From Escherichia coli (GTDB lineage: Bacteria > Pseudomonadota > Gammaproteobacteria > Enterobacterales > Enterobacteriaceae), in the NCBI RefSeq assembly GCF_001677475.2, contig NZ_CP015229.1: DNA of 64,000 nt; one strand, given 5' to 3'. Each line of letters starts with the position of its first letter. The stretch's first letter is position 1. Made by a program: the position numbers. This document shows positions 30,001 through 33,000 of this stretch, one piece after another.

Positions 30001-33000
30001 GCTGAAAGCTTTTGGCGGAATACCGGACATTTTGCATAAGTCTGCTTGCGATATCTTCGCCCAATCAATGATTAGTTGAGCAACCCTGCCATCCAGGCCT
30101 TCTCTAATCTGCCCAAGAAGAGACATACCAGTCGAGTGTTTTAACCCAGCTACTTGCCATAGGTGTGGCGACCTGGGCTGTGATGTTGACAGTTTAAATA
30201 TTTTCATCATTACCCGCCTTCCGATAATTCAGGCTTTTCAAAATAAATATTATATTAAAAGATCAGTCATATATACGACATGCTGATATCACTGGCACTG
30301 ATTCTAATATCCAGTATTTAAACAGTTTTTCTTAAGACGAAGGTACTGTTTACCCGGAACCTGCAGAACAATTAATGAAAACTACTGGTAGAATTAAAAT
30401 GTAAGGGCAATTTTTATTATCCAACTAATAGTTTTTTTGACTAAAAGGTTGATTGGCGGCCTTATCCCCTTCTGAAAGCACTATCAAAGGGAGCAATACG
30501 ATGGTTTATTGTTGCTCCTGATATGTCTGACGGGATCCTATGGCACAGGAAAGAGATCCATGTCAAAAAACATCGAATGAACTGACCACATCAAGCGGAG
30601 GATAGCATTCTAACCATATGATTACATTAACCTTCTACTCCTCCGCACACCAGAAATTATGCCACATTTCCACATCTTAATTTCGGCCGACTTACCACCA
30701 TTGGTGTGTGATTGCTACGTAGTATCCAGTATACCCCACAGACTTAGCATGCGTTGCAATTTAAACTGGTTCCATGAATCTCCAGACAGTTGGTATCACT
30801 TACCTGAGTGATAGCCTTAACACTCGTTTTTAAACCAGCAGCTAGAACCCGATATGATTGTGTCGAGGGTCGCATGTCAGCATGATGTGCTGCCAGTCAG
30901 CTGTTCCTGCGGCGTTAACTGAATCAGGAAGACAGCCTCACTGCCGTTGCCGCTGGTGAACTCGTTGCGTCCGCGTAGGGGCAGTCATCGACGATGAAGA
31001 AAATCGGAGAGCTAAAGCTCCTGCCGGGCAAGAAAAACATGGGAAACTGGTTACTGAAAAGGTCGTTGAATATGGCTGGCAAAAAAAATAGATTATGCAC
31101 ATGCCCTTATTACCCCGGAACGGCGAATTAGACTTATCAGGCTTTGTCACGAGATCTCACATGCACAACTGCATACCATGGCCCATCCTTCGAAGAACTA
31201 GTCGGAACGTCTGTTAAACCTTCGGCAATTCAGTTTTAAAATTGATAGCAGTTAATCCCACTAAATGGTTTACCCGTTTAATTATGTCAGCAAAAACAAA
31301 AAGTTACTTTTCATGGGTATGGATAAAGTCTTAAATGCGATGTTTTACATTAAAAAGCGGACACCTCCCATCGATAAATTGTCTGCAATCTCCACAAACC
31401 CTGCTTTTCAACTTAAGAAAATGAACATTAAAAGAAAAATTTGGAAGTCCCACACTTTCGTAACTCGCATACACAAATTCATTTTTTATAAAATTGTTAA
31501 AATCACAAAAATCCACCTCACTTACCATTCTAATGGTGGCTGACAAATATGCTCTTTGCATTATCTTTACATCAATTACACGTTTCAGACCTGAAGAAGA
31601 TTTATTTTTAAAAATACTACACAGAAAATTAACCAACTCATCCTTATTTTCCAGAATCCACGTTCTGACTCTGCCATCAGAACATGGCAATAGATATACC
31701 GGAGTCTGAAATGGGTTAAAAACATCAACTACAAGTGAATAACACCCCGAAGGATTTAACCCACTCACCATTAACTCACAGAGTCCTTTAACCGCGCCAG
31801 AATAATTATCAAAGCAAACTTCGTATAAACTTTGATTGTGATGGCAACATCTTGATTCAAACTGCCATCTATGTCGAAGATAGCCAACACCTTTGATACG
31901 AATATCTTCCAGAATACAACTGTGGCAATAGCGAATTCGTGAGATGTTTACCACAGGATATGTATTTATAATATTAAATCCTTTATTGTGAGCATCTTCC
32001 ATAGCATCAAAATAGCTGTAAACTCCATATGGAGAGTAAATCATTCTGGAAGTGAGTATAAATCCATTTACTGTGGTAAGAATATCATATAAGTCCTGAG
32101 TTCTGTGTAGCTTATACACATTAATCAACTCCGGTCGTGGGTAAGCATCATATCTTAATGCACCATGCGCTGAGATAATATTCCTGTAATTTTGTATATT
32201 ATATATAATCTGAGTACGTAGAAGAAAACTGTGCCACAATTCATTTTCATATATCATATCAACCTCATTCAACTACTTAGATTTACTCATATTAATCAAA
32301 GCCATAGTAACTGGAAGCTTATCTCTGTTTTTTAATAACCAGCCATGTCCCCCCAGTACAGAATCAAGTCTTGACAGTGACAGTGAGCACTGCCCCTGAG
32401 CTAAAAAATTTTTTATTAATGATAATGAAAACTTATCCCTTTCATCCCAATTGACCCTTTTAACATTACAGCGCCGTGATTCCTTTGGTAAATAAAAATC
32501 AAGCCATTGGCTTTCAAATCTGTTTAGCCAGAAAAAACTTGCATAACAATTCGCCCTGACTACTTTTCGAGTCACAGGACCAGTGAGGCCATGCATGAAC
32601 CGCAGGATTTTTTGTTTATGACGTCGTCTTAAAGAGTCTCTTTTACATTTTTTACGCCATGAACATAATCCATAAAATGAAGAAATCACCGATGAAACAC
32701 TCCCTTCCGATAAGGAGTTTTTCTTTGCTATTGATGCTAAACTAAACCCTCTCACAGCCATGGATTTAATAAGGAACTCAGTTAATATGTTTATTTTAAT
32801 GCTACACTTATAATTCTTTACATACTTTTTATGGATTACTCCTTTAATAAAACATCTACTCTTGTTAAGTTCCTTAGCAAGAGAATTAATACTGTTATGT
32901 TTTTCACTCAGGAGGCAAAACTGGGCTGTATCATCATCAAAAGCGATGCTCTTTGATTTTTTATGGATATCGGCATGTACTGGCCATGTTATTCTTAACA

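What the first reader, a model, noticed from the sequence alone, without database searches (positions are those of the whole stretch)
30211..31330. 1.1 kb without credible ORFs inside the transposon
The stretch between the antitoxin gene and orf313 has only two short low-quality ORFs but mixed base composition, unlike the AT-rich spacers elsewhere. It may be a decayed gene or a structured non-coding RNA carried as cargo.
Basis: seen in the sequence. Interest (0 to 1): 0.3.

Follow-up and report, generated by a model that had tools for sequence, protein, structure and literature searches.

The report
Dead insertion sequence plus gene leader
The 1.1 kb gene-free stretch is a patchwork: the wrecked left end of an IS2-type insertion sequence, the long non-coding region upstream of a lone antitoxin-like regulator gene, and a short unique tail. 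It is ordinary transposon scar tissue, not a hidden gene or a structured RNA.

Summary
Window 30211-31330 has no ORF longer than 70 aa, and its longest stop-free run (72 codons) is what shuffled sequence gives.

The stretch is a mosaic, which explains its mixed base composition (34%, 41%, 49% and 32% GC).
1. 30762-31214 (+) is the dead left end of an IS3-family, IS2-group insertion sequence, about 77% identical to ISEc36/ISEc27. It starts at the left inverted repeat. An ~86-88 bp deletion removed the orfA start. There are at least 4 in-frame stops and 2 frameshifts, and it is cut off about 42 codons into orfB.
2. 30211-30761 is the native non-coding region upstream of the Xre/ParS "antitoxin" gene. 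Its distal 350 bp recur, diverged, in two other yhiN-targeting Tn7-like transposons. They change at about 0.3-0.55 of the synonymous rate, with no clear codon periodicity, no protein family and no RNA-structure signal. I read this part as a promoter/operator/leader; that is inference.
3. 31215-31330 is a unique 116 bp tail after orf313.

"Structured ncRNA" is not supported. Interest is low. The one mildly interesting residue is the conserved non-coding block travelling with a toxin-less antitoxin gene.

The parts
30211..30408 (-). Proximal upstream region of the Xre/ParS gene. It is AT-rich (34% GC) and holds the ribosome-binding region next to the start codon.
   Evidence: Only the first ~33 bp next to the start codon align with the Salmonella homologue L009; the rest is not alignable. 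In the closer pair L009-L029 this part differs at 22-31% per 90 nt, about the synonymous level of pS 0.235. A weak sigma-70-like site (TAGTCA-16-GATAAT) lies on the minus strand at 30443-30416, straddling the border with the conserved core. The number of such sites in the region is not above the shuffle expectation.
30409..30761 (-). Conserved non-coding core ('X core') upstream of the Xre/ParS gene. Best-conserved block is about 30700-30745 (GATACYACGTAGCAATCACA on the gene's strand).
   Evidence: Homologous to L009 3381-3688 (64%, E 7.5e-8) and to L029 4723-5074 (67%, E 2.6e-20). Jukes-Cantor distance is 0.42-0.48 against antitoxin dS of 1.37-1.39, and 0.156 against 0.283 for L009-L029. No clear codon periodicity. 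No Pfam match on stop-free peptides. No Rfam match. No RNA-structure signal. Found in only 11 annotated records, all 99.5-99.6% identical.
30762..31214 (+). Dead, truncated left end of an IS3-family (IS2-group) insertion sequence: left inverted repeat, orfA pseudogene, frameshift A-run, and the first ~42 codons of orfB.
   Evidence: 77.5% identical to ISEc36/ISEc27 copies, starting exactly at the element's first base (query position 1 = 30762). 453 bp match 541 bp of the intact element. An ~86-88 bp deletion at 30844/30845 removes the RBS, the ATG and about 26 codons of orfA. tblastn with ISEc36 OrfA gives 51% identity over 76 aa with 2 in-frame stops (30889-31116). A second frame (31056-31127) carries a further stop. 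The OrfB N-terminus matches 45% over 42 aa (31085-31210) with a stop. The A8 run at 31081-31088 is at the position of the programmed-frameshift site. GC is 0.486.
31215..31330 (.). Unique 116 bp AT-rich tail between the IS breakpoint and the orf313 stop codon; presumably the 3' flank of orf313.
   Evidence: No similarity to ISEc36 beyond ~31214. Not shared with the 69-73% identical orf313 relatives in about 670 E. coli genomes and about 200 plasmids; their homology starts at window 31403. No match to L009 or L029. 32% GC. No terminator-like site.
29764..30210 (-). Flanking gene: Xre/ParS-type antitoxin-like HTH protein with no RES toxin partner.
   Evidence: Pfam Xre_MbcA_ParS_C at 3e-12 and Xre-like-HTH at 2.5e-8. 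NCBIfam TIGR02293 and NF049845. No RES remnant by tblastn.
31331..32272 (-). Flanking gene: orf313, a weak TniQ-like protein and the last gene of the tns operon.
   Evidence: Pfam TniQ at E 8e-5, below the gathering score. PADLOC TniQ at 3.5e-7.

Best explanation
The ORF-free 1.12 kb is a mosaic left by mobile-element traffic inside the cargo of a yhiN-targeting Tn7-like (Tn6230-type) transposon.

(a) 30211-30761 is the original non-coding region upstream of the toxin-less Xre/ParS gene. Its distal 350 bp are under moderate sequence constraint. I infer that they carry the promoter, operator or leader of that gene, read on the minus strand.

(b) An IS2-group insertion sequence once inserted at the far end of that region, with its left inverted repeat at 30762. 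It then decayed: the orfA start was deleted and stops and frameshifts accumulated. It lost everything beyond about 42 codons of orfB in a deletion or rearrangement whose junction is at 31214/31215.

(c) That junction joined the fragment to the 116 bp that follow orf313.

Shown: the IS identity, its decay and truncation; the homology and slower divergence of the 350 bp core; the absence of coding or RNA-structure signal. Inferred: the regulatory role of the core, and the order of events. Neither the IS fragment nor the 116 bp tail is expected to have a function now.
For: IS fragment: searches give 77-78% identity to ISEc36/ISEc27, starting at the IS's first base. Searches show the alignment, the ~86-88 bp deletion and the end at 31214. 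One search shows the OrfA/OrfB remnants with stops in three different frames.

Upstream region: searches (L009; L029) show homology that stops exactly where the IS begins (30758-30762). In both homologues the sequence continues without an IS. One search gives core distances of 0.42-0.48 and 0.156 against dS of 1.37-1.39 and 0.283. One search gives the core 10-13 differences per 90 nt, the same as the coding region, against 20-28 in the proximal spacer, with codon phases 39/37/42 (the antitoxin gene has 7/11/25).

No coding.

No structured RNA.

Mosaic composition. Dispensability: a natural variant (L008) lacks window 30417-38315 after an IS903-like insertion and deletion.
Against: No promoter-like site stands out. 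The consensus scan finds no more sites than in shuffles, and none in the best-conserved block.

The constraint estimate rests on only three lineages. It compares a gapped non-coding alignment with a near-saturated dS. A different recombination history for the core and the gene could mimic constraint.

The core is absent from a fourth lineage of orphan antitoxin genes (L035/L036), which have an unrelated long upstream region. So it is not required by every gene of this kind.

The order of events (insertion, decay, truncation) cannot be reconstructed, because no intermediate form was found.
Confidence: 0.8

Rival explanations
1. The conserved core (30409-30761) encodes a non-coding RNA, either a trans-acting sRNA or a functional long 5' leader, that works with or regulates the orphan Xre/ParS gene.
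For: It diverges at about half or less of the synonymous rate without clear codon periodicity. It is always on the same side and strand relative to the Xre gene in three lineages.
Against: No Rfam match. Single-sequence folding is no better than shuffles, z = +0.37 and -0.48. The RNAalifold covariation term is positive on both strands. The structure conservation index is 0.0-0.57 in all 120-nt windows. No conserved promoter or terminator pair. The one strong hairpin in the window (30596-30647) is not conserved in L009 or L029.
Confidence: 0.12
2. The core is the remnant of a small protein gene (83 aa in L029, 4818-5069) that once sat upstream of the Xre gene. It is now broken in the window (3 stops) and in L009 (a frameshift).
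For: L029 has an intact 83-aa ORF. The window keeps the same frame over about 80 codons, because its indels sum to a multiple of three. Window-L029 differences by codon position are 24/25/35, a slight third-position excess.
Against: No homologue beyond itself in 5.8 billion proteins, nor in an exhaustive HMMER scan of 1.84 billion representatives. No Pfam, PADLOC or NCBIfam match. It is broken in 2 of 3 lineages. L009-L029 differences are 11/10/14 by codon position, whereas the neighbouring antitoxin gene shows 7/11/25. tblastx similarity appears in all three frames. The best-conserved block lies outside the ORF.
Confidence: 0.08
3. Apart from the ribosome-binding region and promoter of the Xre gene, the whole stretch is functionless junk. 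The apparent conservation of the core reflects only shared ancestry or recent recombination.
For: All 11 annotated carriers are 99.5-99.8% identical and so say nothing about constraint. A natural variant lacks 30417-38315. L035/L036 orphan genes do without this core. There are no functional signals.
Against: In the same alignments the segment next to the core is at the neutral level (L009-L029) or not alignable (window-L009). The core itself stays at 64-68% identity across a dS of about 1.4.
Confidence: 0.3

Closest known systems
ISEc36 / ISEc27 / IS2 (IS3 family, IS2 group)
   Same: The left terminal inverted repeat is TAAACTGGTTCCATGAATCTCCAGACAG, against TAGACTGGCCCCCTGAATCTCCAGACAG in ISEc36. 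The fragment keeps the orfA reading frame with its leucine-zipper region, an A-run at the orfA/orfB overlap, and the start of orfB, all in the same order and spacing.
   Different: Only 77% nucleotide identity to the nearest copy in 20,395 E. coli records and 72,556 plasmids. The orfA start is deleted, there are several stops and frameshifts, and the DDE catalytic domain and right inverted repeat are missing. It is a fossil that cannot transpose.
Type II RES-Xre (ParST / MbcTA-like) toxin-antitoxin operons
   Same: The gene to the left of the stretch is a full-length Xre/ParS antitoxin homologue, 66-75% identical to antitoxins of complete RES-Xre pairs.
   Different: No RES toxin gene or remnant follows it. 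In complete pairs the upstream spacer is only ~70-220 bp, with various neighbouring genes. Here the upstream non-coding region is 550 bp and contains a conserved core.
Tn6230-type Tn7-like transposons that insert between yhiN and yhiM
   Same: A tnsA-tnsB-tnsC-tnsD operon plus an extra TniQ-like gene, next to yhiN and carrying defence cargo. The literature reports Tn6230 at this hotspot (PMC10121019) and the related sil/pco element on an IncHI plasmid moving to yhiN/yhiM (PMC8417528).
   Different: The finding is not part of the transposition machinery. It holds no TnsB-site-like motif and lies in the first cargo position.

Membership tests
IS3 family, IS2 group insertion sequence | Left terminal inverted repeat of the group | tested here: met
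   Window 30757-30860 is 81.7% identical to the first ~100 bp region of ISEc36, including the IRL. The match starts at the element's first base, 30762.
IS3 family, IS2 group insertion sequence | orfA (HTH / leucine zipper) followed by overlapping orfB, joined by a -1 frameshift at an A-run | tested here: inconclusive
   Homologous remnants are present in the right order, and the A8 run at 31081-31088 is kept. But orfA has lost its start and carries at least 3 stops and 2 frameshifts. It is recognisable but not functional.
IS3 family, IS2 group insertion sequence | DDE (integrase-core) catalytic domain in orfB | tested here: not met
   Only the first ~42 codons of orfB remain (31085-31210). tblastn finds no further OrfB similarity adjacent. 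The only other hit in the window (18545-18802, 29%) belongs to a different IS3-type fragment.
IS3 family, IS2 group insertion sequence | Right inverted repeat and 5-bp target-site duplication | tested here: not met
   No similarity to the ISEc36 right end anywhere in the window. The duplication cannot be assessed without a right end.
Described structured RNA family (Rfam) | Covariance-model match at or near the gathering score | tested here: not met
   The best matches in 29500-32000 are eukaryotic miRNA models at E 2.5 and 9.7, both outside the finding. Nothing on the homologous parts of L009 or L029.
Structured non-coding RNA in general | Thermodynamic stability above background, and conserved or covarying base pairs | tested here: not met
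   z = +0.37 and -0.48. Covariation terms are +1.8 and +1.23 kcal/mol. SCI is at most 0.57. Power is limited by having only three lineages.
Protein-coding gene or pseudogene of a known family (for 30211-30761) | Similarity of any frame to a protein family, or codon-periodic substitution | tested here: not met
   Pfam on 10 stop-free peptides gave nothing. Proteins encoded next to relatives gave no tblastn hit other than L009's own homologous stretch. The 83-aa ORF of L029 has no relatives. Substitution phases across the whole upstream region are 39/37/42.
Type II RES-Xre toxin-antitoxin module (neighbouring gene) | RES-domain toxin gene immediately downstream of the antitoxin, overlapping its stop | tested here: not met
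   tblastn with a RES partner finds nothing at E <= 1 in the window or in L009, L029, L031, L035 or L036. Homology to complete pairs ends 8 bp after the stop codon.

The most novel reading that the evidence does not exclude
The 350 bp core (30409-30761) is a functional non-coding element, either an operator/leader or an unstructured regulatory RNA. It forms a unit with a toxin-less Xre/ParS-type HTH protein. That unit is carried at the first cargo position by very divergent yhiN-targeting Tn7-like transposons, next to their anti-phage cargo. It might act as a regulator of the cargo or of the transposon, or as immunity against RES toxins.
Probability: 0.25. Interest if true: 0.4.

Novelty: new member of a known kind. 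Interest (0 to 1): 0.15.

Why it matters
It matters little for biology at large. It explains an unannotated gap that RefSeq leaves blank in 11 complete records: about 40% is the fossil of an IS2-group element with no close living relative in the E. coli and plasmid collections. The practical value is for annotation and for reconstructing how this defence-carrying Tn7-like island was rearranged.

The only lead with some reach concerns the Xre/ParS "antitoxin". It is toxin-less, it is under purifying selection (dN/dS about 0.1), and it recurs at the same position in distantly related Tn6230-type transposons. In one clade it comes with a conserved non-coding block. If that pair proved to be a regulator of transposon cargo or an anti-toxin immunity device, it would add a small piece to the biology of defence islands.

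Tried and rejected
1. I asked whether the IS fragment and the integrase-core pseudogene at 18434-19039 are two halves of one IS split by an inversion. Rejected: there is no DNA similarity to ISEc36 there and only 29% aa identity, so it belongs to a different IS3 subgroup.

2. I asked whether 30211-30761 holds a decayed copy of a gene that sits upstream of related antitoxins (hha, DUF4942, pemK, mqsA-like and others). Rejected: tblastn of all ORFs from L009-L027 gave nothing beyond L009's own homologous stretch.

3. I asked whether the region holds Tn7-end-like TnsB sites. No copy of the right-end motif lies in 30211-31330.

4. I asked whether the 97 bp after the antitoxin plus the 116 bp tail after orf313 reconstitute the ~200 bp spacer seen in L009 and L029, which would mark a simple inversion. 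Rejected: most of the 97 bp is the end of an ISEc39/IS256-like pseudogene, matching to about 29738.

5. Two scans of genome contigs found nothing, one with the antitoxin peptide patterns and one with the conserved 23-mer.

6. The metagenome scan gave one window-identical locus (L028), one useful homologue (L029) and one chance hit (L030).

7. More lineages sought through antitoxin relatives (P0054, P0008, P0024, P0057) all turned out to be complete RES pairs with unrelated upstream DNA. P0010 and P0076 are orphans, but with a different upstream region.

8. A 17-nt identity between 31314-31330 and 8765-8781 has no flanking similarity and is probably chance.

Full report
**Observation.** Window 30211-31330 lies between the start of a minus-strand Xre/ParS antitoxin gene (29764-30210) and the stop of minus-strand orf313 (31331-32272). 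The longest ORF there is 70 aa. The longest stop-free run is 72 codons, against 85 +/- 18 in shuffles. So the stretch has the ORF content of non-coding DNA.

GC rises from 0.34 to 0.49 and falls back to 0.32. The stretch is inside a Tn7-like transposon. The genes tnsA (37424-38278), tnsB, tnsC, tnsD (32273-33844) and the weak TniQ-like orf313 all read leftwards from yhiN (38409-39611). This yhiN/yhiM hotspot is known for Tn6230-type elements (PMC10121019; PMC8417528).

**Distribution.** The 1120 bases occur, at 99.7-99.8% identity and with no annotation, in 6 of 5426 complete E. coli genomes (at yhiN) and on 5 Salmonella IncHI1B plasmids. Such near-identical copies say nothing about constraint.

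**The right 40% is a dead insertion sequence.**
- Thousands of records match only query positions ~540-1004, always under IS3-like ISEc36/ISEc27 transposase genes, at 77-78% identity.
- Re-querying from 30762 shows that the match begins at the query's first base. 453 bases of the window correspond to 541 bases of the IS.
- Alignment to an intact ISEc36 copy (L003/L004) shows the left inverted repeat at 30762 (TAAACTGGTTCCATGAATCTCCAGACAG).
- An ~86-88 bp deletion at 30844/30845 removes the ribosome-binding site, the ATG and about 26 codons of orfA. Similarity ends at about 31214.
- tblastn with the ISEc36 proteins recovers OrfA in pieces across different frames with in-frame stops. It also recovers the first 42 residues of OrfB (31085-31210) with a stop.
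- The A8 run at the orfA/orfB overlap survives at 31081-31088.
- There is no DDE domain, no right end, and no other ISEc36-like DNA in the window.

**The left half is the native upstream region of the Xre/ParS gene.**
- Positions 30211-30762 match nothing in the plasmid or E. coli collections except the 11 identical copies.
- Rfam finds nothing, and Pfam finds nothing on the stop-free peptides.
- Going through relatives of the antitoxin gave a Salmonella locus, L009 (antitoxin 75% aa). Its upstream DNA is homologous to window 30434-30758 (64%, E 7.5e-8) and to the 33 bp next to the start codon.
- A metagenome scan with the best-conserved 20-mer gave a third lineage, L029, also seen as L031-L034.
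- In both homologues the similarity runs up to the exact point where the IS begins in the window, and their sequence continues without an IS. The IS therefore inserted at the distal end of a pre-existing non-coding region.
- In L029 that region is 634 bp long and lies between a bubE (DUF6527) gene and the antitoxin gene.

**Is the conserved core (30409-30761) functional?**
- The antitoxin genes have dS of 1.37-1.39 (window against L009 or L029) and 0.283 (L009 against L029), with dN/dS of about 0.1-0.2. The core has Jukes-Cantor distances of 0.42-0.48 and 0.156.
- In the unsaturated pair L009-L029 the core shows 10-13 differences per 90 nt, like the coding region. The spacer between the core and the gene shows 20-28. 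Substitution phases across the whole upstream region are flat (39/37/42), against 7/11/25 in the gene.
- So the core is more conserved than its neutral surroundings and is not evolving like a coding sequence.
- L029 has an 83-aa ORF there. It is frameshifted in L009 and has three stops in the window. It has no relative in 5.8 billion proteins or in an exhaustive HMMER scan of 1.84 billion representatives. It has no Pfam, PADLOC or NCBIfam match.
- RNA structure is not supported. z-scores are +0.37 and -0.48. Covariation terms are unfavourable. SCI is 0.0-0.57 in all sub-windows, on both strands.
- No promoter or terminator stands out.
- With three lineages, I can say only that the core is a moderately constrained, sequence-level (not structure-level) non-coding element. 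My best guess is the promoter/operator/leader of the Xre-type HTH gene. The imperfect palindrome GATACTAC/GTAGCAATC lies in the best-conserved block. That role is inference.
- A fourth orphan lineage (L035/L036) has a different long upstream region. One natural variant (L008) has lost 30417-38315.

**The 116 bp tail.** Positions 31215-31330 (32% GC) match neither the IS, nor L009 or L029, nor the orf313 relatives, whose homology begins at 31403. I take it to be the 3' flank of orf313. The junction at 31214/31215 is then the scar of the deletion or rearrangement that removed the rest of the IS.

**Context that bears on the history.** In L009, L029/L031-34 and L035/L036 the toxin-less antitoxin gene is convergent with the last (TniQ-like) tns gene. 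In the window it is co-directional with that gene. Here it is flanked by two dead ISs: the IS2-like fragment on one side and an ISEc39/IS256-like pseudogene (about 28531-29738) on the other. IS-associated rearrangement is the likely cause, but no intermediate was found.

**Verdict.** The finding is real but ordinary. It is an IS fossil, plus a long gene-upstream region, plus a short 3' flank. "Decayed gene" is partly right, since the fragment is a transposase gene rather than cargo. "Structured ncRNA" is not supported.

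Noticed in passing
window 29764-30210 (minus); L009 4001-4444; L029 5268-5714; L035 3001-3444; L036 489-929: The Xre/ParS 'antitoxin' has no RES toxin gene or remnant, whereas 66-75% identical relatives always have one overlapping the stop. 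Toxin-less copies sit at the first cargo position of at least four very divergent yhiN-type Tn7-like elements. TnsD is only 29% aa identical and the TniQ-like protein 21%, against 75% for the antitoxin. The antitoxin's dN/dS is about 0.1, and it sits next to Bub, CBASS or other cargo. It may be a conserved accessory regulator or an anti-RES immunity gene.
   Followed up: partly
window 28531-29738 (minus): An ISEc39/IS256-family transposase pseudogene, split into several ORFs and 82-87% identical to intact copies, ends about 25 bp from the antitoxin stop codon. That is where a RES gene would normally be.
   Followed up: partly
window 38320-38411 (+), 19111 (-), 6312 (-): The TnsB-site-like motif [TC]ACAAC[ACT][TC]T[AT] occurs four times at the right end next to yhiN. 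It occurs once each, inverted, at 19111 and 6312. The yhiM-yhiN island (about 6.3-38.4 kb) may consist of two tandem or nested Tn7-like elements, with the inner one spanning about 19.1-38.4 kb.
   Followed up: no
window 23898-26402: A 2.5 kb IS66-family element (530-aa transposase, NCBIfam transpos_IS66 at 4e-134) is inserted in the CBASS E1/E2 (Cap2) region. It is absent from the otherwise identical loci L002 and L005-L008.
   Followed up: partly
L008 4735-5791 (E. coli GCA_053209775.1): In this natural variant an IS903/IS5-type element replaces window 30417-38315, which includes the whole tns operon, the IS2 fossil and most of the conserved core. The Xre gene and CBASS are left next to yhiN.
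   Followed up: yes
L001 10341-11757 (E. coli NZ_CP045712.1 and 5 similar chromosomes): In the chromosomal E. coli copies, window 19071-29967 is replaced by IS1 and IS3 elements. This removes the CBASS, orf223 and IS256 fossil and truncates the antitoxin gene, yet the 1120 bp stretch is kept intact.
   Followed up: partly
window 31331-32272 (minus): orf313, annotated as hypothetical, is a weak TniQ-family protein (Pfam E 8e-5, below threshold; PADLOC TniQ 3.5e-7). It follows tnsD and so could be a second target selector, which would fit the element being found both at yhiN and on IncHI1B plasmids.
   Followed up: partly
window 27216-27887 (minus): A 223-aa ORF with predicted membrane-like sequence lies between the IS256 fossil and CBASS. 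It has no Pfam, PADLOC or NCBIfam match.
   Followed up: no
window 31314-31330 and 8765-8781: A 17-nt exact repeat (TGGGTATGGATAAAGTC) with no flanking similarity; probably chance.
   Followed up: yes
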